Source of the DNA: Syntrophomonadaceae bacterium
GTDB lineage: Bacteria; Bacillota; Dethiobacteria; DTU022
Reading direction: 5' to 3'
Length of the DNA: 64,000 bases
Assembly (NCBI GenBank): GCA_003554395.1
Contig: PWGD01000148.1
Coordinates: forward strand, 5,958-69,957
Positions 3,950 to 64,000 of the stretch are shown in pieces. Position 1 is the stretch's first letter, and each line of letters begins with the position of its first letter. Made by a program: the position numbers and the translations under genes. The notes beneath the pieces are model-generated. The model did not search any database and was not told the origin of the DNA. It worked only from the letters and a program-made list of their open reading frames with translations.

Positions 3950-6900
3950 ATGGGTGAGGATCAAAAGCATGAAATCAACCTTGGCCTGGATATTGGTGTT
4001 TTTTCAGCCAAGGGTGTTATTTTAGATAATGGTCAAGTAGGTAAAGTTAAATTTCCGACTGCTGGAAGGCCGGTTGAAGCGGCCCAGAAATGCATCGATC
4101 ACCTGCTCGAAGGCAAACAGGCTCGGTTGATAAAAGTCGGTGTAATGGGGCAAAACGGCAAACTGGTAGCTGAAGGTTTTCATATCAGGCATTTGCTTGA
4201 AATTGAAGCTCTCCAGGCCGGCCTGGCCCACCAGCAAATTGAAGCCGATTATGTCTTGTCCCTGGGTCACGAGAATGTTCACTACCTGGAGCTGGACAAA
4301 AATAAACAGATCAGTTATTTCAGCCGCAACGGACAATGCGCGGCTGGTAGCGGTTCGTTTTGGTACCAGCAGGCAACCAGGATGGGTTACAATGATCGAG
4401 AGCTGGCAGAAATTGCTGTTCAGGCCGATTCGGCTGTTCCTATCTCCGGCCGCTGCGCGGTTTTTGCCAAGTCCGACATGACCCATGCCATTAATGAAGG
4501 GGCTACCCAAAGCGCTGTATCAGCCGGAATGGGCAAAGCCCTGGTTGAAAATATAGTAACCAGTGTGGTTCAGAACCGTCTTCAGGGGCCAGGAACACTG
4601 GTTACCGTCGGTGGTGTAGCCAATAATAAAGCAGTAATCAAATATCTCGATCAATATGTGAGCACTGAAAATATTACTTTGTTCATTCCTGAAGATCATG
4701 AATACATTAACGCTGTAGGAGCAGCCGTAAAAGGTACGCAGTTTGATTTTAATGAACTTATTAACAACAAGCTGGTAACTACTGAATACGAACCTGAAAA
4801 TCCCCTTCCCCCATTAAAACCTGAACAGGTCTGCTATCTCGAAAACAAGTCGACCCCAAAAGATTTTGACCTTTCCCAGGTTTATTTAGGCGTGGACTGC
4901 GGCTCTGTCTCAACCAAATGTGTCCTCCTCGATCAAAAAGGTCGCCAGATTGGCGGGGTTTACCTGCCGACAACCGGCCGCCCGGCCCTGCAGGTGCTGG
5001 AATTGATGAAACAAGTTGAAGAGCGTTATGGATCATTGATTGGGAACGCTCCGATTGTGGCCTGCACTACCGGCTCGGGAAGATTTTTATCCCAGAAAAT
5101 CTTAAATGCGGAATATGCCGTGGACGAAATTACCTGTCAGGCCGAGGGGATCAAGAGTTTGTTTGAGGATGATAGCACCCTTTCTATAATCGAAATTGGT
5201 GGGGAAGACTCCAAGTTTATTCAACTGCATAACGGCATACTCTATGATTATAATATGAACCCGGTTTGTGCCGCCGGCACCGGCACCTTCCTGGAAAACC
5301 TGGCCGAACTGCTCGGCGTCAGTATCAAGGATGAATTCTCCAATAAGTCTTTTGCTGCTGAATACGGTGTTGATCTCGGCGACATCTGCACCCTGATTTC
5401 CCAGTCAATTCTGGCCTCAGCTTCTGCCAGGGGCTTGCCCCTTAATGAGCAATTGGCCAGCCTGGCCTATTCTTCTGCCCAAAATTATCTCAGTAAAACC
5501 GTGGATAAAAGGCCCCTGGACGGCAGGGTTGTTTTCGCAGGAGCCACCGCCAAGAACCATGCCCTGGCTGCGGCCCTGGCCTATATTTGTGAAAAAACCG
5601 TTTATGTGCCTCCCGAACCGGAATTGACCGGAGCTCTGGGCAGCGCCCTGATGGCCAGACAGTTCCAACTGCGGGGTTATAAAAGCCGCTATTCATTTAG
5701 CAGCCTCTCTGGATTCAGCCAGTTTTCCAGTGATAAGAAACCATGTAAGGCAGAGTGCAAACATGAGCATAACTGTGTATTGAACATAATCAGTTTTTCA
5801 GACGGAAAGAAATTTGTTTATGGCGATCGCTGTGGACGCTATTCCGGCATCGATAAAAAGAAAGACGGCGAAGATTTACCCGACTATGCCGCTAAAAGAA
5901 ACGAGCTGTTTCACGAAGCGATTGAAGATACAGATCCTGACGGTCCGCGGGTGGGTATCGCCCGCTGCGGCCTCTACTTTGATTATTATCCCTTCTGGGC
6001 GTCATTTTTTCGCAAGCTGGGCTGTTCTGTAGTCCTATCCGATGAAAGCACAGCTGAAACGCTTCAGAAGGGTAAAATAAATCTGGATTCTGAGATGTGC
6101 TACCCGATGAAAGTAATTATCGGGCATTATCAGGATTTAAAGGAAAAAGACTTGGATTATGTTTTTCTGCCTGAGGTGGTAAACACAGAAGACCTGCCCT
6201 GGGCTGCAGGTTGGCCCCGTAACTTTGTTTGTCCCCTGCTGCAAACTCTGCGGGGTACGGTTGTAAACTCGATTGAATATGAGCCGGAAAAGGTGCTTTA
6301 CGCCCAGCTCAACTATAAAGACGGCTTTGAGTGCATTAAAGAACAGTTAGAACCGGCAGCCAGGAAAATCCTTGGGGCGGGTTACAGCGATAACCTCCTG
6401 GATGAGGCAGTCCGTGCTGCTTACGGCGCCCTGGAGGGTTTTAGAAATAATCTCTCTTTCGCAGCCGAAGAAATGTTTGAAGATCTGAAAGCTAATTCCG
6501 ATCGGGCGGCGGCAGTATTTTTAAGCCGCAGCTACACCCTTTATGATGAACTTATTTCCAAGAAATCGATGCGCTTCGCCCGTGAAAGCGGTTTGATGGC
6601 TGTTCCGCACGAATATTTGGTCGCCTATCTTCAAGCCTGGTACGAAGGCAAAATAAACTCACCATACCTTGATCCTTACCGGGAAGAATTTAAGGTTTAC
6701 TTAAAAAATCAGGTGAAACAGATCCACAACCTTTACCCGGCTCAGCTGCAAAGAATACTGTCAGCGGTAATCCTGATTAATTTCATGAACCAGAAGACAA
6801 AAGAAACAGGCCTTCCCCAGGTAAACATGATCTTTTTAGATCCTTTCAAGTGTGGGCCAAACGCGATGCTCAGGCACTTTTTAAAGGGGATGACCGATTA

Positions 6901-8308
6901 CCTCCGTTTGACTCTGGACGAGCATACCGCTCCGGCGGGCATGATTACCAGGCTGGAAGCCTTCCGGAATACCTGCCTGTCCAGGGAAAAATTCCGGGCC
7001 CCGACTATCCCATCTTCGGAGACTTGCACTGTTGATCAAGATGACTGGAACAAGATCCTGATTCCCGATATGACTAAGCATTCCGATATATTTGCCTCCT
7101 TTTTCAGGAATTGTGGAATTGAAGCCGAAGTTATACCCAGGGGCAGGCCGGGAGATCTCTCTCTGGCCCAGCGCTATGTCAACGGTGAAGAATGCCTGCC
7201 TTTTATTCAGAACCTGCAGGATTATCTGCACCACCTGCATTCAAACAAACCTAAAAACGGCGAGGTTTTCTTCCAGGGCTGGGCCTGCGGGCCCTGCCGT
7301 TATGGTCTTTATGCCCCGGTTCAGAACCTGGCTCTAAACAGGGCCGGCTTCGGAGAGAGAAAAGTGTGTGCGGTCCGGCTGGCCGATGTGGTTAAGCGCT
7401 GCGGTTATTCTTCGATAATCGGCCTCTTCAACGCTTTGACGGTTATGGACATCCTTTACAAACTGTTGCACAGGGTGAGGCCCTATGAGCTGGAACCCGG
7501 ATCCAGCAGACGTCTTTTTGATAATTACAGCAAAAAAATGTTTTCACTGCTGGAAAATTACCGGGCGCCGTTAGTCAGCTTGTTCAGCGGCAGTTATAGA
7601 AAGCCGCTGGAAGACCTGATTCGAGAGGCGGGAGAGGAATTTAGCCGGATCCCGGTTGATAACAGCCTGGTTAAACCAAGGATCCTTTTAGGCGGAGAGT
7701 TTTACGTGCGTATGGACAACCGCTGTAACCAGGAAGTTATAACAAAAATAGAGGAAGCCGGCGGTGAGGTTTGCCTGGCCCCGGTAACAGAAATCTTTAC
7801 CTATACCCTTTATATCGATTACCATGAAACCCGGCAGGCCTTCAGGTTGAAAAGAAGGCCGGCCGACTACCTCAAGCAAAAAATCTATAAACTCTTAATC
7901 GACATCGCACACCGCGATGAGGTTGCGTTGGAAAATGCTGCCGGGCCACTGCTTGAAGATCTCCACGAACCTGCGCCCTGGGAGATCATGGAACATGCCG
8001 TCAAACATGTTTCCCGGCATTACGGTGGCGAACCGCCGATGACGATCGGGCGGACTGCTGCTTTCAGCAGCAGAGAGAGGGTTGGGGGTGCGATCTTTGT
8101 TGCTCCCTTTACCTGCATGCCCAGTTCGGTGGTCGAGGCCCAGCAGGGGCTCCTGCAGGATAGACTGGGTCTCCCGGTCGTTACAGTTTATTACGACGGC
8201 AAGGAAAATACCAACCGTGATGAAATGGTTGAAGGCCTGGTCTTTCAAGCCCGCCAAAAAATTAACGGGGATTTGCCGGTTCGAGATCCACAATATCAAC
8301 TATCCTGA
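3950..8308 (+). CDS. Large fusion protein of 1452 aa: two tandem BadF/BadG/BcrA/BcrD-type ATPase (CoA-substrate-specific enzyme activase) domains joined to a DUF2229/HgdB-like (2-hydroxyacyl-CoA-dehydratase-D-component-like) domain
   Basis: It contains two actin-fold ATPase cores. The first is LGLDIGVFSAKG…GGVANNKAV and the second is LGVDCGSVSTKC…FAGATAKNHALAAAL. A Cys cluster follows (CKAECKHEHNC…C), then ~800 aa with a CGPC motif typical of the dehydratase-component-like uncharacterised domain. Confidence 0.7.
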   Translation: MGEDQKHEINLGLDIGVFSAKGVILDNGQVGKVKFPTAGRPVEAAQKCIDHLLEGKQARLIKVGVMGQNGKLVAEGFHIRHLLEIEALQAGLAHQQIEADYVLSLGHENVHYLELDKNKQISYFSRNGQCAAGSGSFWYQQATRMGYNDRELAEIAVQADSAVPISGRCAVFAKSDMTHAINEGATQSAVSAGMGKALVENIVTSVVQNRLQGPGTLVTVGGVANNKAVIKYLDQYVSTENITLFIPEDHEYINAVGAAVKGTQFDFNELINNKLVTTEYEPENPLPPLKPEQVCYLENKSTPKDFDLSQVYLGVDCGSVSTKCVLLDQKGRQIGGVYLPTTGRPALQVLELMKQVEERYGSLIGNAPIVACTTGSGRFLSQKILNAEYAVDEITCQAEGIKSLFEDDSTLSIIEIGGEDSKFIQLHNGILYDYNMNPVCAAGTGTFLENLAELLGVSIKDEFSNKSFAAEYGVDLGDICTLISQSILASASARGLPLNEQLASLAYSSAQNYLSKTVDKRPLDGRVVFAGATAKNHALAAALAYICEKTVYVPPEPELTGALGSALMARQFQLRGYKSRYSFSSLSGFSQFSSDKKPCKAECKHEHNCVLNIISFSDGKKFVYGDRCGRYSGIDKKKDGEDLPDYAAKRNELFHEAIEDTDPDGPRVGIARCGLYFDYYPFWASFFRKLGCSVVLSDESTAETLQKGKINLDSEMCYPMKVIIGHYQDLKEKDLDYVFLPEVVNTEDLPWAAGWPRNFVCPLLQTLRGTVVNSIEYEPEKVLYAQLNYKDGFECIKEQLEPAARKILGAGYSDNLLDEAVRAAYGALEGFRNNLSFAAEEMFEDLKANSDRAAAVFLSRSYTLYDELISKKSMRFARESGLMAVPHEYLVAYLQAWYEGKINSPYLDPYREEFKVYLKNQVKQIHNLYPAQLQRILSAVILINFMNQKTKETGLPQVNMIFLDPFKCGPNAMLRHFLKGMTDYLRLTLDEHTAPAGMITRLEAFRNTCLSREKFRAPTIPSSETCTVDQDDWNKILIPDMTKHSDIFASFFRNCGIEAEVIPRGRPGDLSLAQRYVNGEECLPFIQNLQDYLHHLHSNKPKNGEVFFQGWACGPCRYGLYAPVQNLALNRAGFGERKVCAVRLADVVKRCGYSSIIGLFNALTVMDILYKLLHRVRPYELEPGSSRRLFDNYSKKMFSLLENYRAPLVSLFSGSYRKPLEDLIREAGEEFSRIPVDNSLVKPRILLGGEFYVRMDNRCNQEVITKIEEAGGEVCLAPVTEIFTYTLYIDYHETRQAFRLKRRPADYLKQKIYKLLIDIAHRDEVALENAAGPLLEDLHEPAPWEIMEHAVKHVSRHYGGEPPMTIGRTAAFSSRERVGGAIFVAPFTCMPSSVVEAQQGLLQDRLGLPVVTVYYDGKENTNRDEMVEGLVFQARQKINGDLPVRDPQYQLS

Positions 8309-49791: not shown

Positions 49792-50412
49792 TCAAATCCG
49801 GCGGAATAGGCCAATCACTTTGCCCAGGACTTCGACTTCCCGGGTCAGGATGGGATCAAAAGCATTGTTTTCAGGCTGTAAGCGGTAACCATTTTCGTCA
49901 ACATAAAAGCGTTTGACCGTTGCTTCATCTTCAAGCAAAACAGCGACAATTTCTCCATTTTCCGCATTACTCTGCTGCCTGATAACAACATAGTCACCAT
50001 CGTTGATCCCGGCTCCAATCATACTGTCTCCCGCAACCCTGAGGACAAAGCAACCCTCGTCATTTGATATAGCGGAGGGGATAGGAAAAAGGCCTTCCCG
50101 GTTTTCTTCGGCAAAAATCGGCTGGCCGGCGGTGATCCTCCCTACTATGGGAGCAAAGACGCATTTTGCGTCCGGATCGGCAATAACTTCGCCATCAGCA
50201 TTCCGGATCAGCTTTATTGCTCTTGGCTTTGTAGGCATCCTTGAAATATAGCCCTTACTTTCCAGGGTATCCAGGTGGCCGTGCACAGTTGCAGTTGAAC
50301 TTATGTTGAGCGCTTTACATATTTCCCGTACAGAGGGAGGATAATTCCAACGCTTAACTTCTTGTTCTATAAAATCCATAACCCGCTTTTGTTTATCTGT
50401 TAACGGTTCCAA
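49792..50412 (-). CDS. lexA: LexA repressor
   Basis: It has the N-terminal winged-helix region, the Ala-Gly cleavage site region, and the S24 peptidase Ser/Lys residues (…VAGDSMIGAGI…VLGKV…). Size is 206 aa. Confidence 0.9.
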   Translation of the reverse strand: MEPLTDKQKRVMDFIEQEVKRWNYPPSVREICKALNISSTATVHGHLDTLESKGYISRMPTKPRAIKLIRNADGEVIADPDAKCVFAPIVGRITAGQPIFAEENREGLFPIPSAISNDEGCFVLRVAGDSMIGAGINDGDYVVIRQQSNAENGEIVAVLLEDEATVKRFYVDENGYRLQPENNAFDPILTREVEVLGKVIGLFRRI

Positions 50413-50445: not shown

Positions 50446-50486
50446 ATTATAGCACCATTTGTCTGATAAAACAAACTACTGTTTGC
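50446..50486 (-). promoter_or_regulatory. lexA promoter with an overlapping LexA box for autoregulation
   Basis: On the minus strand the sequence reads CAAACAGTAGTTTG (+ coordinates 50472–50485), overlapping a TTGTTT -35. After a 17-bp spacer comes a TATAAT -10 (+ coordinates 50446–50451). The box is a near-identical variant of the one upstream of the Y-family polymerase. Confidence 0.6.
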
Positions 50487-52099: not shown

Positions 52100-52390
52100 T
52101 TAAAACAAGGCATAAAAAAACTTTCGCCTAAGAGACGAAAGTTAATTTCGCGGTACCACTCTTCTTGACGGCATGACATCTACCGCCCACTCTTATAGAT
52201 AACGGAAGTCTCCGGCCAATCCTAGTTTTGGCCTGTAAAGCCAAGTTCGGTTGGCGGCTCACGGATGAGTTCACAGGTTCCGCAATGCCGCCTTCCACCA
52301 TACGGCGGCTCTCTGGGGATGGCATTGCCTGTTACTGCTTCCGATCACAGCCTTTTGCCTGATCAAATCAATTATTGTAAGGTTACCTAA
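52100..52390 (-). promoter_or_regulatory. T-box riboswitch leader for leuA/cimA, comprising Stem I with specifier loop, the T-box antiterminator and an intrinsic terminator
   Basis: The minus strand reads …UGUGAUCGGAAGCAGUAACAGG…AGAGAG…GGAACCUGUGAACUCAUCC…AAGAAGAGUGGUACCGCGAAAUUAACUUUCGUCUCUUAGGCGAAAGUUUUUUUAUG. The T-box core AGAGUGGUACCGCG is present. A terminator hairpin (AACUUUCG…CGAAAGUU) plus U7 partly overlaps the antiterminator. A candidate specifier GAA-CUC-A suggests Leu. Confidence 0.75.
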
Positions 52391-52608
52391 AAATACTGTT
52401 GTTGTCAAGCACAATTTTACAAAATATTTTTTCTGTCTTTTTCGATTGTTTAGTAATGGATATTTTAAAGCTTTAAATAAACGCAATTCATATAAAATAC
52501 CGTTTTTACTTGACAAATCTGATTCAATCGATCAGAATATAAATATAATTCCGTAATTAATTAAAGACCCTTATATTATAAATACGGCGTTATATAGGCG
52601 GTGAAAAA

Positions 52609-53625
52609 GTGTCTACCCGCCAAAGGAAAACAGCAGTCCTAAGCAACAGCGAACAGGTGGCGCTTATAAAACAGCCCAACCAAAAAGCACCTACCGGCCT
52701 GCGCAATCTATGTATATTAATGTTAATGTTAAAGGCCGGCCTGCGCGTAGGTGAAGTTATTACTTTGGCTGTTGAAGATATAGACTGGGAGGAGTGTAAA
52801 GTATACCTTGCAGAAAGTGGGGCAGCCAAGGAACGTACTTTATGGCTTGATGATGAACTGCTGGGCTTACTAAAAGCCTGGAGAAAAATAAGGCCTTCTG
52901 AAAGCCGTTATTTCTTATGTACCCTTAAAGGAAGGCCCCTCAATGACCGCTATTTAAGGGAAATGGTTAAACGCCTGGGCCGTAAAGCCGGTATAAATAA
53001 AGATGTTTATCCCCATCTGCTGCGCAGTACTTTTGCCGTTAATTTAATTCAGGAAACAAATGATATCCGTTTAACCCAAAATGCCCTGGGCCACAGGGAT
53101 GCTTCAACCACCCAGCTTTATGTTAAACACATGTTCAGCGAACACAGCATGACCTATTATGATATTTTGGGCTACAGGAGAAGCGGCATCCCGGCTAAAA
53201 AAAACGCCGCTGAAAAACCGCGACCCAAACTGCTTGCAGCAAGCATTAACGATAACACGAGAAGCAGAAATAATTATAACAACCGGCCGGAGAGAAAAAG
53301 GGAGGAGGAGGTTGAATCCGAAGAAATAGGCCCAAACCGCAGCCGTGAGCAACAAAACATTCAAATAAAACCCCTGGGCCGCCCTGATGAAACTGAGATG
53401 CAGTATGAATTTGATTTTACCGGCAAACGTATCGAAAAAAACTCCCATGCTGAGCCTGAGCCAGGCCTATCATCAGGACCAACTGAAGAGAGGACCGTCC
53501 AGGGAAACCCAATACCGCCGATTAAATGCAGCAAATGCGCGTACATTCTCAGGTATGATCAGGACTGCCCGCAGTGCGGCACTGCATTCGCATCCATTTT
53601 AAAGCATTGGAGAGGAAATGTTTAA
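52609..53625 (+). CDS. Truncated tyrosine-recombinase (phage-integrase-family) catalytic domain, fused to a long charged linker and a C-terminal C4 zinc ribbon
   Basis: The catalytic signature residues are present. Arg is in …GLRNLCILMLMLKAGLRVGEV…, the HxxR motif is HLLRSTFA, and His/Tyr are in LGHRDASTTQLYVKH. There is no N-terminal core-binding/SAM domain. The tail has RSRNNYNNRPERKREEE… low complexity and ends with CSKC…CPQC. GTG start. Confidence 0.65.
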   Translation: MSTRQRKTAVLSNSEQVALIKQPNQKAPTGLRNLCILMLMLKAGLRVGEVITLAVEDIDWEECKVYLAESGAAKERTLWLDDELLGLLKAWRKIRPSESRYFLCTLKGRPLNDRYLREMVKRLGRKAGINKDVYPHLLRSTFAVNLIQETNDIRLTQNALGHRDASTTQLYVKHMFSEHSMTYYDILGYRRSGIPAKKNAAEKPRPKLLAASINDNTRSRNNYNNRPERKREEEVESEEIGPNRSREQQNIQIKPLGRPDETEMQYEFDFTGKRIEKNSHAEPEPGLSSGPTEERTVQGNPIPPIKCSKCAYILRYDQDCPQCGTAFASILKHWRGNV

Positions 53626-53664
53626 GACCTTTTTCAGGGGGAGGGAGGAGGAAAAGGTCTTTTG
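53625..53664 (+). terminator. Hairpin plus T-tract after the integrase-like gene
   Basis: AGACCTTTT-(G-rich loop)-AAAAGGTCTTTTG. Confidence 0.45.
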
Positions 53665-53893
53665 AAAGAATTATATTATATGATTTAACTTCCGATAATA
53701 CATCTTATGTAAACAAAGAGGGAGGAGCCGGTTTTCTTTTCCCTGTAGAACATGAATCCTTGAAAATATTTTAAATTAGTGATCGCGCACGTTGTATTTA
53801 AAACCTTTGAATTGATATAATAGTACTACTAACAAAAAAGTATATCTGTATCTAAGCGGGTTTGGCTATCATATATAAATATCATATCTAAAG

Positions 53894-63464: not shown

Positions 63465-63556
63465 TTGTTGAGATCCTCCTTTGCGGATTTATGATTAGTA
63501 TTCGACCTAAACAATTTATTTCCTGCCGGAATTATATGAATAATTTGATATAACTG

Positions 63557-64000
63557 TTATATTAAGTCGTAGATGCGCCTTATGAAGAGAGCATTACCGT
63601 TTTCAGCGTCAATTTCTATATCTACAGCATTAAAAACCTCCCTGCCCCCGGATATTTCCAGCTTGTGGGGGAGCTGGGTCAAAAACCTTTTCAAGGGCCC
63701 TTCCCGGTCTACGCCCAAAACAGAGTCATAAAGGCCGGCCATTCCCACATCGGTTATGTAGGCTGTTTTCCCCGGCAAAATCCTCTCATCTGCAGTTTGG
63801 ACATGGCTGTGTGTTCCGATCACAGCGCTTACTTCCCCATTTAAAAACCAGCCCATGGCCTGTTTTTCAGAAGTAGCCTCGGCATGCATATCTACAATTA
63901 TAATGCCGACCTGATCCTTAAGTTCAAACAGTTTCTTTTTCACGGCCCTGAAGGGGCAGTCTACGGGGTCCATAAAAACCCTGCCCATTAAATTGATTAC
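63557..64000 (-). CDS. ymdB: YmdB-type metallophosphoesterase (2',3'-cyclic-nucleotide phosphodiesterase family). The C-terminal part is here and the N-terminus lies beyond the window end.
   Basis: The frame is open to the window edge. The sequence …VDMHAEATSEKQAMGWFLNGEVSAVIGTHSHVQTADERIL…TDVGMAG… matches the YmdB family. The ymdB-spoVS order is as in Bacillus. Confidence 0.75.
   Translation of the reverse strand, partial: VINLMGRVFMDPVDCPFRAVKKKLFELKDQVGIIIVDMHAEATSEKQAMGWFLNGEVSAVIGTHSHVQTADERILPGKTAYITDVGMAGLYDSVLGVDREGPLKRFLTQLPHKLEISGGREVFNAVDIEIDAENGNALFIRRIYDLI

What the first reader, a model, noticed from the sequence alone, without database searches (positions are those of the whole stretch)
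52609..53664. A tyrosine-recombinase catalytic domain with no DNA-binding N-domain, fused to a low-complexity linker and a C4 zinc ribbon, opposite the leuA T-box
The first ~170 aa contain the R…HxxR…H…Y catalytic residues of XerD/phage-integrase enzymes, but the protein begins directly in the catalytic domain. The C-terminal 160 aa are unrelated. They form a charged, Asn/Arg/Glu-rich linker ending in CxxC…CxxC, which is a zinc ribbon. This is not the layout of Xer, integron or phage integrases. It could be a domesticated recombinase acting as a regulator, a remnant of an integrated element, or a partner-dependent recombinase. Several features flank it: a very AT-rich 230-bp upstream region, an envelope-related three-gene operon downstream, and tRNA-Gln 4 kb further on. 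I found no attachment-site repeats by eye.
Basis: partly seen in the sequence, partly recalled or inferred. Interest (0 to 1): 0.55.

Follow-up and report, generated by a model that had tools for sequence, protein, structure and literature searches.

The report
Zinc-ribbon Xer-like protein beside dif
A cut-down relative of the enzymes that unlink replicated chromosomes, missing its usual DNA-gripping domain and one essential catalytic residue but carrying a zinc-binding tail, is encoded right next to the chromosome's unlinking site (dif) in a whole lineage of soda-lake bacteria, which points to an undescribed helper or regulator of that process and not to a mobile-element integrase.

Summary
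ORF 52609-53625 (338 aa) is a complete tyrosine-recombinase catalytic (CAT) domain with no core-binding N-domain. A disordered linker and a conserved C4 zinc ribbon follow it.

Three things were missed:
- The architecture is a conserved family. More than 100 homologues exist, and the gene is syntenic in 39 species-level genomes. It is not an island or a remnant.
- A canonical XerC/XerD-type dif site (53688-53715, 23/28 identical to B. subtilis dif) lies 62 nt after the stop codon. It is present in all 37 syntenic genomes that have that flank. The locus sits at the GC-skew and gene-strand switch, which marks the replication terminus.
- The active site is incomplete. The general-acid lysine of the beta2-beta3 loop is absent from all 110 ribbon-bearing homologues. 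Three homologues have Tyr→Phe, and the one of them whose locus I could read (L188) has everything else intact.

An invariant promoter element and repeated TWCCG half-sites resembling the XerC arm of dif precede the gene.

My best reading is a catalytically crippled, autoregulated, Xer-derived DNA-binding protein acting at or near dif as a non-catalytic partner or regulator (confidence about 0.45). I could not test whether canonical XerC/XerD coexist with it. It is a new variant of a known kind.

The parts
52609..53625 (+). Gene for the 338-aa Xer-like protein ('REC'): CAT domain, linker and zinc ribbon. GTG start, preceded by the RBS GGCGGTGA at 52597-52604.
   Evidence: The exact protein is found on 6 metagenome contigs.
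52639..53136 (+). Tyrosine-recombinase catalytic domain (residues 11-176). R46, E49, H136, R139, H162 and Y171 are present. The beta2-beta3 loop reads 'ESGAAKER' and has no Lys at the general-acid position.
53176..53193 (+). Conserved 'RRSGIP' motif just after the CAT domain (residues 190-195).
   Evidence: S192, G193 and P195 are at least 90% conserved. pLDDT is about 90 in the window model but low in the P0091 model.
53194..53508 (+). Hypervariable, charged, low-complexity linker (residues 196-300), predicted to be disordered.
   Evidence: Alignments; pLDDT mostly below 50.
53509..53622 (+). C-terminal C4 zinc-ribbon module, 'IPPIKCSKCAYILRYDQDCPQCGTAFASILKHW' (C307, C310, C320, C323; H333-W334).
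   Evidence: The four Cys are conserved in 101-104 of 104 homologues. pLDDT about 97. No Pfam family passes threshold.
52510..52557 (+). Conserved promoter and operator-like element: -35 TTGACA (52510-15), a 17-nt spacer, then TCAGAATATAAATATAATTCCGTAAT. This holds CAGAAT at 52533-38, TATAAT at 52544-49 and the TTCCG box at 52549-53.
   Evidence: The 17-mer CAGAATATANATATAAT is exact in 24 distinct related loci, always upstream of the gene. Promoter scan gives 10 of 12.
52498..52502 (+). Box A: a TACCG half-site 12 nt upstream of the -35 hexamer.
   Evidence: Positional peak in 13-16 of 28 loci. TWCCG boxes number 3.6 per 170 nt against 0.69 in shuffles. The same 'tagTACCGtttt' box is found upstream of short-form homologues.
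53688..53715 (+). Canonical dif site: XerC arm ACTTCCGATAA (53688-98), central TACATC (53699-704), XerD arm TTATGTAAACA (53705-15).
   Evidence: It is 23/28 identical to the B. subtilis dif given in PMC3025954. It is present on the same strand, 37-165 nt after the stop, in 37 of 37 syntenic genomes with that flank. The same arms occur in 57 contigs that have no REC.
53624..53664 (+). Terminator-like hairpin (AAGACCTTTT ... AAAAGGTCTTTTG) enclosing a G-rich run, GGGGGAGGGAGGAGG (53637-53651), between the stop codon and dif. Its function is inferred.
   Evidence: Sequence. G-rich runs recur at this position in most loci. A fold of the wider region is not exceptional.

Best explanation
REC is a vertically inherited, Xer-derived 'pseudo-recombinase'. 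It is a sequence-specific DNA-binding protein built from a tyrosine-recombinase catalytic domain. That domain has lost the core-binding domain and the general-acid lysine, and it has gained a C-terminal zinc-ribbon module.

The gene is transcribed from a sigma-A-type promoter (TTGACA, 17 nt, CAGAAT). The -10 and start region of that promoter lies inside an invariant element carrying TWCCG-type half-sites.

Inferred steps:
- REC binds these half-sites and represses its own synthesis.
- The half-sites resemble the XerC arm of dif (ACTTCCGATAA), and the gene sits about 60 nt from dif at the replication terminus. REC made in cis would therefore also occupy the XerC side of dif, or dock onto XerC/XerD there through CAT-CAT contacts.
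- There it acts as a non-catalytic partner or regulator of chromosome-dimer resolution, or of other terminus transactions.

Shown: the architecture, the missing Lys, sporadic loss of Tyr, His and Arg with everything else kept, strict linkage to dif, the terminus position, and the conserved cis-elements.

Inferred: DNA binding, autoregulation, and action at dif.

For: 2. No Lys at the XerD-K172 / XerA position in three independent profile alignments. All 110 ribbon-bearing homologues lack it, while 5 ribbon-less forms of 192-223 aa keep GKGxKDR. In Cre, Tyr324 and Lys201 are the two essential residues, and the equivalent Flp and Xer mutants are inactive (PMC2943603).

3. About 20 of 104 homologues carry substitutions at Arg I, His II, His III or Tyr, including Tyr→Phe three times. 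The Tyr→Phe, His→Asn variant P0102 (locus L188) keeps the promoter element, the ribbon, dif 33 nt after the stop, and full synteny. Other variants map to loci with intact dif.

4. dif adjacency holds in 37 of 37 genomes.

5. Terminus position: GC skew is +0.043 left and -0.069 right of dif. The heptamer GAAGAAG runs 23:3 on the left and 8:13 on the right. Genes are 31 of 34 on the + strand to the left and run on the - strand to the right, through recA and ftsK.

6. Cis-elements: the invariant promoter element is found in 24 or more species. TWCCG boxes are enriched five-fold at fixed positions. The palindrome AGTACCG-N13/14-CGGTACT sits before the RBS across the family, short forms included. 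In L038 it has 13-bp arms and a 6-bp spacer and matches the XerC arm in register at 7 of 11 positions.

7. Precedents: MrpR is a tyrosine-recombinase-fold repressor without catalysis (PMC10516654). XerD has a reported SMC-unloading role at dif-like XDS sites in the terminus (cited in PMC11840125; that it is independent of recombination is from my own knowledge of Karaboja 2021, which I did not read here).
Against: - Arg I, His II, Arg II, His III and Tyr are still conserved in 91-100% of members. That is more than a pure DNA-binding role obviously needs, so residual or partner-assisted catalysis is possible.
- The window protein has K74 three to four residues from the expected Lys position, in a flexible loop.
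- No binding data exist, and the similarity between the half-sites and the XerC arm is modest.
- Adjacency to dif is part of one block of conserved synteny, so the 37 genomes are not independent evidence of a functional link.
- I could not establish whether canonical XerC/XerD exist in these genomes.
- The position of the ribbon relative to the CAT domain is not robustly predicted (pTM 0.63 and 0.66).
Confidence: 0.45

Rival explanations
1. REC is an active dif recombinase. It would be either the sole Xer of the lineage, as a gene-plus-dif module like XerS/difSL or XerH/difH, or a replacement for XerC working with XerD. In this reading the zinc ribbon substitutes for the core-binding domain, and another residue (for example K/R74) substitutes for the loop Lys.
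For: - The gene is immediately adjacent to dif, as in the XerS module (PMC1914069). In another organism a full-length Xer gene lies 60 nt from the same dif (L167).
- The best family scores are to XerA, XerC and XerD.
- R, H, R, H and Y are mostly conserved.
- The family half-sites resemble the XerC arm.
- A long flexible linker could let the ribbon reach round the DNA.
Against: - The loop Lys is absent in 110 of 110 ribbon-bearing members, and K or R at position 74 occurs in only 63 of 104.
- Tyr→Phe occurs three times. For the one such variant whose locus was retrieved (P0102, L188), dif and synteny are intact.
- Both dif arms are identical to those used by 57 REC-less contigs of diverse GC content. 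This argues that canonical XerC and XerD reading heads are still present.
- A homodimer could not read the XerD arm.
- Scores are far below the Xer equivalog cut-offs (107 against 335, 103 against 330).
Confidence: 0.2
2. REC is only an autoregulated DNA-binding protein, either a transcription factor or a terminus-organising protein, with no role in Xer recombination. Its position next to dif would then be a frozen accident, for example an ancient insertion of a small recombinase-plus-site module near dif that was later domesticated.
For: - Conserved operator-like elements at its own promoter and leader are found family-wide, including in homologues that are not near dif (Dethiobacter-type L052; short forms L038, L045, L055, L065).
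- Short-form relatives occur on viral contigs.
- The region as a whole is syntenic, so linkage need not be selected.
- MrpR is a precedent.
Against: - The chance that a tyrosine-recombinase-family gene is the nearest neighbour of dif is small.
- The gap to dif has stayed at 37-165 nt with a fixed orientation in all species, while the other side of dif gained and lost genes.
- No other copies of the promoter element occur within about 20 kb in any locus, so there is no visible regulon. The one weak second hit is the spoVS promoter.
Confidence: 0.25
3. REC is a FimB/FimE-like DNA invertase that flips a promoter segment to phase-vary the downstream envelope operon (BPL_N, PGA_cap, GT4).
For: - FimB/FimE-type invertases of about 200 aa have the CAT-only layout (own knowledge; one search shows the corresponding NCBIfam profiles are 198-200 positions long), and there is a weak NCBIfam hit to tyrosine-type invertases (69 bits).
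- A surface-related operon lies downstream.
Against: - No inverted repeats above shuffled expectation in the intergenic region in 33 loci.
- Four independent contigs are collinear with the window at 99.8% or more.
- The intergenic region holds dif instead.
- BPL_N and CapA are absent in three lineages that keep REC.
- The score is far below the cut-off of 221.
Confidence: 0.03
4. REC is a decaying remnant of a phage or ICE integrase belonging to an island bounded by tRNA-Gln.
For: - The gene looks truncated at the N-terminus.
- A tRNA gene lies 4 kb away.
- Databases annotate homologues generically as 'integrase'.
Against: - Gene order is conserved across 39 species-level genomes.
- CAT, the ribbon and the cis-elements are under purifying selection.
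- Composition matches the neighbours.
- No att-like repeats.
- The start position is shared across the aligned homologues, apart from a few truncated N-termini.
Confidence: 0.02

Closest known systems
XerC/XerD (CodV/RipX) with dif
   Same: - The catalytic-domain fold and most active-site residues match.
- The best profile hits are XerA, XerC and XerD.
- The adjacent site is a canonical 11-6-11 dif at the terminus.
- The family half-sites resemble the XerC arm.
   Different: - No core-binding domain and no loop Lys.
- A C-terminal linker and zinc ribbon are added.
- Scores are far below the equivalog cut-offs.
[quoted passage not shown]
Single-recombinase Xer modules (XerS/difSL, XerH/difH, XerA)
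   Same: The recombinase gene is genetically linked to its dif site at the terminus as a single module.
   Different: - Those enzymes are full-length (CB plus CAT) and catalytically complete, and XerS acts on an atypical dif.
- Here dif is canonical and two-armed, and the protein is truncated and lacks the Lys.
- In the XerS module the site lies upstream of the gene. Here dif is downstream, and a different conserved element is upstream.
FimB/FimE-type tyrosine DNA invertases
   Same: They are CAT-only tyrosine recombinases without a core-binding domain.
   Different: - They keep the loop Lys (from the FimB sequence as I recall it; not tested here).
- They are about 200 aa with no ribbon.
- They act on an adjacent invertible segment with inverted repeats. 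None is present here.
MrpR (YopR) of SPbeta and related tyrosine-recombinase-fold repressors
   Same: - Tyrosine-recombinase fold with an incomplete active site.
- Repeated conserved DNA elements in promoter regions.
   Different: - MrpR keeps a CB-like domain, retains only 3 of the 7 core active-site residues and lacks the Tyr nucleophile.
- It is phage-encoded and has no zinc ribbon.
- REC is chromosomal, linked to dif, and retains 6 of the 7 active-site positions.
Non-catalytic and accessory functions around Xer: XerD at XDS sites (SMC unloading), XafT of TLC-phi (a Xer activation factor)
   Same: These are precedents for terminus-bound, Xer-related activities that are not the dif recombination reaction itself, and for small factors that modulate XerCD.
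   Different: - XerD at XDS sites is the full-length enzyme.
- XafT is, to my knowledge, not a tyrosine recombinase (not checked here).
- Neither is encoded next to dif.

Membership tests
Tyrosine recombinase / phage integrase catalytic domain (PF00589) | Profile match above the gathering score over the whole domain | tested here: met
   118.6 bits against a cut-off of 27.1, profile positions 3-170 of 172.
Tyrosine recombinase / phage integrase catalytic domain (PF00589) | Catalytic-domain fold | tested here: met
Tyrosine recombinase / phage integrase catalytic domain (PF00589) | [quoted passage not shown] | tested here: met
   R46, E49, H136, R139, H162 and Y171 are present in the window protein. 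Family-wide counts out of 104 are R 99, H 95, R 104, H 102 and Y 101.
Tyrosine recombinase / phage integrase catalytic domain (PF00589) | General-acid Lys in the beta2-beta3 loop (Cre K201, XerD K172) | tested here: not met
   S70/G71 align to that Lys in three PDB alignments. It is absent in 110 of 110 ribbon-bearing homologues. K74 aligns to the second, non-catalytic Lys of the GKGxKxR motif.
XerC / XerD chromosome-dimer resolvases | Equivalog-level sequence match (TIGR02224 / TIGR02225) | tested here: not met
   107.6 against 335.15, and 103.1 against 329.6 bits.
XerC / XerD chromosome-dimer resolvases | N-terminal core-binding (SAM-like) domain | tested here: not met
   The protein starts at the CB-CAT linker. 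An in-frame stop lies 30 nt upstream, and there is no CB-like ORF in the 545-nt gap.
XerC / XerD chromosome-dimer resolvases | Acts on a dif site at the replication terminus | not testable with these tools
   Co-location is shown: dif lies 62 nt downstream, at the skew and strand switch. Activity on dif cannot be computed.
XerC / XerD chromosome-dimer resolvases | Activation by the FtsK gamma domain | not testable with these tools
   An FtsK with a gamma domain is encoded about 20 kb away. No interaction test is possible.
Single-recombinase Xer modules (XerS/difSL, XerH/difH) | Recombinase gene adjacent to its dif site | tested here: met
   37 of 37 genomes, with a gap of 37-165 nt.
Single-recombinase Xer modules (XerS/difSL, XerH/difH) | Atypical dif, and no XerC/XerD in the genome | tested here: inconclusive
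   dif is canonical, with arms identical to those in 57 REC-less contigs. Presence or absence of xerC and xerD could not be checked.
Single-recombinase Xer modules (XerS/difSL, XerH/difH) | Sequence membership (NF003462 XerS) | tested here: not met
   66.1 against 267 bits.
FimB/FimE-type DNA invertases | Sequence membership (NF007370 / NF007371) | tested here: not met
   69.3 against 221, and 49.9 against 222 bits.
FimB/FimE-type DNA invertases | Adjacent invertible segment bounded by inverted repeats, with both orientations seen | tested here: not met
   No inverted repeat above shuffled expectation in 33 loci. Four contigs are collinear.
Tyrosine-recombinase-fold non-catalytic DNA-binding regulators (MrpR type) | Tyrosine-recombinase fold with an incomplete active site maintained by selection | tested here: met
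   The Lys is lost family-wide. Tyr→Phe, His→Asn and Arg→Lys variants occur; those whose loci could be read (P0102, P0085, P0019, P0103 and the Arg→Lys clade) keep the ribbon, the cis-elements and dif.
Tyrosine-recombinase-fold non-catalytic DNA-binding regulators (MrpR type) | Binds repeated operator elements in promoters | not testable with these tools
   Candidate elements exist. Binding is untested.
Integrase of a mobile island at tRNA-Gln | Island variably present, att repeats, atypical composition | tested here: not met
   Synteny is conserved in 39 genomes. No att-like repeats. GC content is like the neighbours.

The most novel reading that the evidence does not exclude
REC is a previously unrecognised component of the chromosome-dimer-resolution machinery. 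It would be a core-binding-domain-less, lysine-less Xer paralogue that uses its catalytic-domain clamp and a zinc ribbon to occupy the XerC half of dif. In this reading it either replaces XerC as a non-catalytic architectural partner of XerD, or gates XerCD activity. Gating could mean blocking FtsK-independent, XerC-first exchanges of the kind exploited by dif-integrating elements, or coupling resolution to sporulation or division. It would be the first 'pseudo-Xer' encoded as a module with a canonical dif.
Probability: 0.3. Interest if true: 0.8.

Novelty: new variant of a known kind. Interest (0 to 1): 0.62.

Why it matters
Xer/dif systems are described as two-recombinase (XerCD) or single-recombinase (XerS, XerH, XerA, XerL) machines. 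All of these are built from full-length, catalytically complete enzymes.

Here a whole lineage keeps a truncated, lysine-less Xer relative with a zinc ribbon tightly linked to a canonical dif. This would add a new kind of player at the terminus, whether a non-catalytic partner, a gatekeeper or an organiser.

It would also be a natural example of a recombinase catalytic domain being turned into a site-specific DNA-binding module. The ribbon-less, lysine-bearing short forms provide an evolutionary series leading to it.

The finding gives directly testable predictions: binding to TWCCG half-sites and to the XerC arm, an effect on dif recombination, and presence or absence of xerC.

A practical point for annotation: these proteins are labelled 'XerD' or 'site-specific integrase' in databases and would be miscounted as markers of mobile elements.

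Tried and rejected
- **Invertible promoter between REC and the BPL_N gene.** A repeat scan and a 33-locus inverted-repeat test against shuffles found nothing. Four contigs with the identical protein are collinear.
- **Island or att site at tRNA-Gln.** Rejected by synteny and composition.
- **A hidden or frameshifted N-domain.** An in-frame stop lies 30 nt upstream. The upstream region is occupied by the T-box and promoters, and the start is shared across homologues.
- **SOS control.** The lexA promoter has CAAAC-N4-GTTTG. There is no GAAC-N4-GTTC anywhere in the window and no such box at the REC promoter.
- **The promoter element as a second, degenerate dif (an IMEX-like flank).** It has no XerD arm, and only TTCCG(-)TAAT resembles the XerC arm.
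- **Tus/RTP-like fork trap with an inverted second site.** The only weak second match (63527-63547) is the conserved spoVS promoter.
- **The leader palindrome as an RNA hairpin.** The A/T position in the two arms does not covary consistently, which fits protein half-sites better.
- **A paralogous or canonical Xer gene nearby.** There is none in the 64-kb window or in the roughly 20-kb loci fetched around the syntenic homologues.
- **Finding canonical xerC/xerD of the lineage.** The window's left end is not the usual region.
- **The afdb50 fold library** was unavailable.
- **A second AF2 model of a short-linker orthologue** did not settle whether the ribbon docks on the CAT domain (pTM 0.66).
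- **A fold of the stop-to-dif region** is not exceptional (z -0.5).
Full report
**1. The observation**

The ORF runs from GTG 52609 to TAA 53625 and encodes 338 aa. The finding's end coordinate, 53664, is the end of a terminator-like hairpin, not of the gene.

- Pfam Phage_integrase covers residues 11-176, which is profile positions 3-170 of 172 (E 3e-34).
- The NCBIfam Xer, integron and invertase models all match only the catalytic half, and all score far below their cut-offs.
- An in-frame TAA lies 30 nt upstream of the start.
- The 545-nt gap to leuA is occupied by a T-box leader (52128-52357, minus strand, 125.6 bits) and by promoters.

No hidden N-domain exists. The C-terminal CxxC...CxxC motif is real.

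**2. A conserved family, not debris**

A search of 5.8 billion proteins returned 145 relatives. The 120 listed are mostly 260-392 aa and cover the whole query at 38-79% identity. Sources label them only as 'site-specific integrase' or 'XerD'.

Alignments show four parts:
- a highly conserved CAT domain;
- a conserved RRSG-P motif;
- a linker hypervariable in length and sequence;
- a conserved terminal module, 'IPAxKCSxCxYILRYxxxCPxCGxxFxxILxHW', whose four Cys are kept in 101-104 of 104 sequences.

**3. Vertical inheritance**

In one genome per GTDB species, 56 loci encode relatives. Thirty-nine of these carry the long form and share the order leuA(-) | REC | BPL_N | CapA-like | GT | gltX(-) (a few contigs are cut short).
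- LeuA is 79-91% identical across them, and REC is 40-56% identical.
- Most are soda-lake 'Syntrophomonadaceae' or Bacillota MAGs.
- Composition matches the neighbours.
- Three lineages lack BPL_N and CapA but keep REC (L010, L024, L064).

The island-or-remnant reading is therefore rejected, and so is an obligatory tie to the envelope genes.

**4. Not an invertase**

- No inverted repeats exceed shuffled expectation around the downstream intergenic region in 33 loci.
- Four contigs carrying the identical protein are collinear with the window.

**5. The key context: dif at the terminus**

A pattern scan found ACTTCCGATAA-TACATC-TTATGTAAACA at 53688-53715, which is 62 nt after the stop codon.
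- It is 23/28 identical to the B. subtilis dif, ACTTCCTAGAATATATATTATGTAAACT (PMC3025954). The XerD arm matches at 10 of 11 positions.
- The same site lies on the same strand, 37-165 nt after the REC stop, in all 37 syntenic genomes whose flank is available. It is next to none of the short-form homologues.
- Window genes are 31 of 34 on the + strand up to 49.7 kb, and mostly on the - strand after 57.9 kb.
- The right flank continues on the - strand through spoVS, ymdB, rny, recX, recA, cinA, miaB and an ftsK with a gamma domain.
- GC skew is +0.043 over the 53.7 kb left of dif and -0.069 over the 19.8 kb right of it. The heptamer GAAGAAG is 23:3 on the left and 8:13 on the right.

This is the replication terminus.

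The same 27-bp dif occurs in at least 119 metagenome contigs.
- Fourteen carry REC just upstream, all with traces of the same synteny.
- Fifty-seven have at least 1.3 kb on the XerC-arm side and no REC. Their GC content ranges from 21 to 62%.

So this is the ordinary, widely used XerCD-type dif. In one high-GC contig a full-length 306-aa XerD-like gene ends 60 nt from it (L167). That shows that adjacency of a Xer gene to dif occurs elsewhere.

**6. The active site is incomplete**

In three profile alignments to solved Xer structures, the general-acid Lys (XerD K172, the first K of GKGxKxR) aligns to S70/G71 of 'ESGAAKER'.
- None of the 110 ribbon-bearing homologues has this Lys. Five ribbon-less forms of 192-223 aa keep GKGxKDR.
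- K or R at position 74, which corresponds to the non-catalytic second Lys, occurs in only 63 of 104.
- In Cre, Tyr324 and Lys201 are the two residues that tolerate no active substitution, and the corresponding Flp and Xer mutants are inactive (PMC2943603).
- About 20 of 104 members carry changes at Arg I (Lys, 5), His II (Asn, Gln, Gly or Tyr, 9), His III (2) or Tyr (Phe, 3).
- The Tyr→Phe, His→Asn protein P0102 sits in a locus (L188) with the promoter element, the ribbon, dif 33 nt after the stop, and full synteny.
- Other variants also map to loci with intact dif.

The conserved function therefore does not require DNA cleavage in at least some lineages. Still, R, H, R, H and Y are 91-100% conserved, so residual or partner-assisted chemistry in most members is not excluded.

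**7. Conserved cis-elements**

Upstream of REC the block cTTGACAa-N-TCAGAATATAnATATAATTCCGtaat (window 52510-52557) is nearly invariant. The 17-mer CAGAATATANATATAAT is exact in 24 distinct related loci and occurs once per locus. The spacing from TTGACA to CAGAAT is fixed at 17 nt, so the invariant part overlaps the -10 and start region. That is the position expected of an operator.

TWCCG boxes are enriched five-fold: 3.6 per 170 nt against 0.69 in shuffles. They peak at -12, +39 and about +59 relative to the -35 hexamer.

Many loci also have a palindrome, AGTACCG-N13/14-CGGTACT, just before the RBS.
- The same box and palindrome precede ribbon-less, Lys-bearing short-form homologues in unrelated contexts, one of them on a viral contig (L038, L045, L055, L065).
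- In L038 it reads ATAATACCGATTT-TCTATA-AAATCGGTATTAT. That is a 13-6-13 core-site layout whose arm matches the dif XerC arm ACTTCCGATAA in register at 7 of 11 positions.
- The A/T position of the two arms does not covary consistently. This favours protein half-sites over an RNA stem.
- In the window itself this palindrome is degenerate.

**8. Interpretation**

The ancestral short form looks like a minimal recombinase with its own XerC-arm-like core site next to the gene. The ribbon-bearing forms lost the Lys. In one clade the gene became fixed beside dif.

I take REC to be an autoregulated, Xer-derived DNA-binding protein. I infer that it acts at or near dif without catalysing strand exchange itself, as a non-catalytic partner or a gatekeeper of XerCD, or possibly as a terminus organiser.

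Precedents are:
- MrpR, a tyrosine-recombinase-fold repressor (PMC10516654);
- the reported SMC-unloading role of XerD at dif-like XDS sites (cited in PMC11840125);
- XafT, a Xer activation factor (PMC9226527, listed).

Both arms of dif are identical to those in REC-less organisms. This argues that canonical XerC and XerD are still present, but I could not verify it.

Caveats:
- The 37 genomes share one syntenic block, so their linkage to dif is not independent evidence.
- Binding and autoregulation are inferred.
- AF2 does not settle where the ribbon sits (pTM 0.63 and 0.66).

**9. Comparison and novelty**

REC passes the tests for the tyrosine-recombinase catalytic domain except for the Lys. 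It fails membership of XerC/XerD, XerS, the integron integrases and the FimB/E invertases.

It shares with the XerS and XerH modules only the linkage of gene to dif (PMC1914069). It shares with MrpR only the idea of a recombinase fold reused for DNA binding.

Four literature searches aimed at such a protein found no description of a CAT-only, zinc-ribbon, dif-linked protein. I class it as a new variant of a known kind, with interest 0.62.

Noticed in passing
window 53688-53715, and about 48-58 kb: The window contains the chromosome's dif site and the replication terminus. GC skew changes sign, and gene orientation flips from 31 of 34 on the + strand to mostly the - strand.
   Followed up: yes
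window 53637-53651 and 53718-53727; related loci: Purine-rich runs of the GGGGAGG type recur 30-60 nt upstream of dif in most loci and just downstream of it in many. GGGGAGGG matches the E. coli KOPS consensus GGGNAGGG. Several of the downstream runs are one arm of GGGAGG...CCTCCC hairpins. Whether they are FtsK/SpoIIIE-orienting signals, terminators or leftover RBS-like sequence is unknown.
   Followed up: partly
window 50472-50485 (- strand), upstream of lexA (49792-50412): The lexA promoter carries the palindrome CAAAC-AGTA-GTTTG, a variant of the Firmicutes SOS box. The canonical GAAC-N4-GTTC is absent from the whole window.
   Followed up: partly
window 63465-63560 (- strand), upstream of spoVS; about 25 related loci: The spoVS leader has a strongly conserved block, TTCATATAATTCnGGCAGGA, followed about 20-25 nt later by (C/A)GAATA. 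This looks like a sigma-H-type promoter (AGGAwww ... GAAT) overlapping a TATAAT box. The TATAATTC part is shared with the REC promoter element.
   Followed up: partly
L052 10001-10846; also L041-L044, L049, L051 (Dethiobacter-type loci): A second orthologous group of 277-320 aa has a CAT-only domain, no loop Lys and a variant ribbon (KCxCG...CxGCG). It sits in a different conserved chromosomal context (an LRR-repeat protein by sequence and several shared ORFs that I did not annotate) with no dif within 10 kb. In L046-L048 and L050 the C-terminal part is a separate ORF.
   Followed up: partly
L038 9915-9942, L045 12-39, L055 6289-6316, L065 5941-5968: Short relatives of about 190-200 aa with a full catalytic loop (GKGxKDR) are each preceded by a near-perfect palindromic site of the core type, with TACCG arms. 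One is on an IMG/VR viral contig. These may be minimal recombinase-plus-site modules of unknown function.
   Followed up: partly
L167 1920-2927: In a high-GC metagenome contig a full-length 306-aa XerD-like gene ends 60 nt from a dif identical in its arms to the one here, with the XerD arm nearest the gene.
   Followed up: partly
L010, L024, L064 (and L101): Some lineages lack the BPL_N and PGA_cap genes between dif and the glycosyltransferase. The right side of dif has therefore undergone gene gain or loss while the REC-dif pair stayed intact.
   Followed up: partly
window 3950-8308: A 1452-aa ORF. Its sequence looks like a fusion of BadF/BcrA/HgdC-type activase ATPase repeats with a dehydratase-like region. 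It is flanked by thiolase-like and ornithine-carbamoyltransferase-like genes. I did not run it against any profile library.
   Followed up: no
REC-clade dif sites versus REC-less dif sites: The dif central region ends in C (TACATC, TATATC, TGTATC) in every REC-linked site, but is mostly TATATA in REC-less contigs with the same arms (10 of 57 end in ATC). This may simply be a lineage signature.
   Followed up: partly
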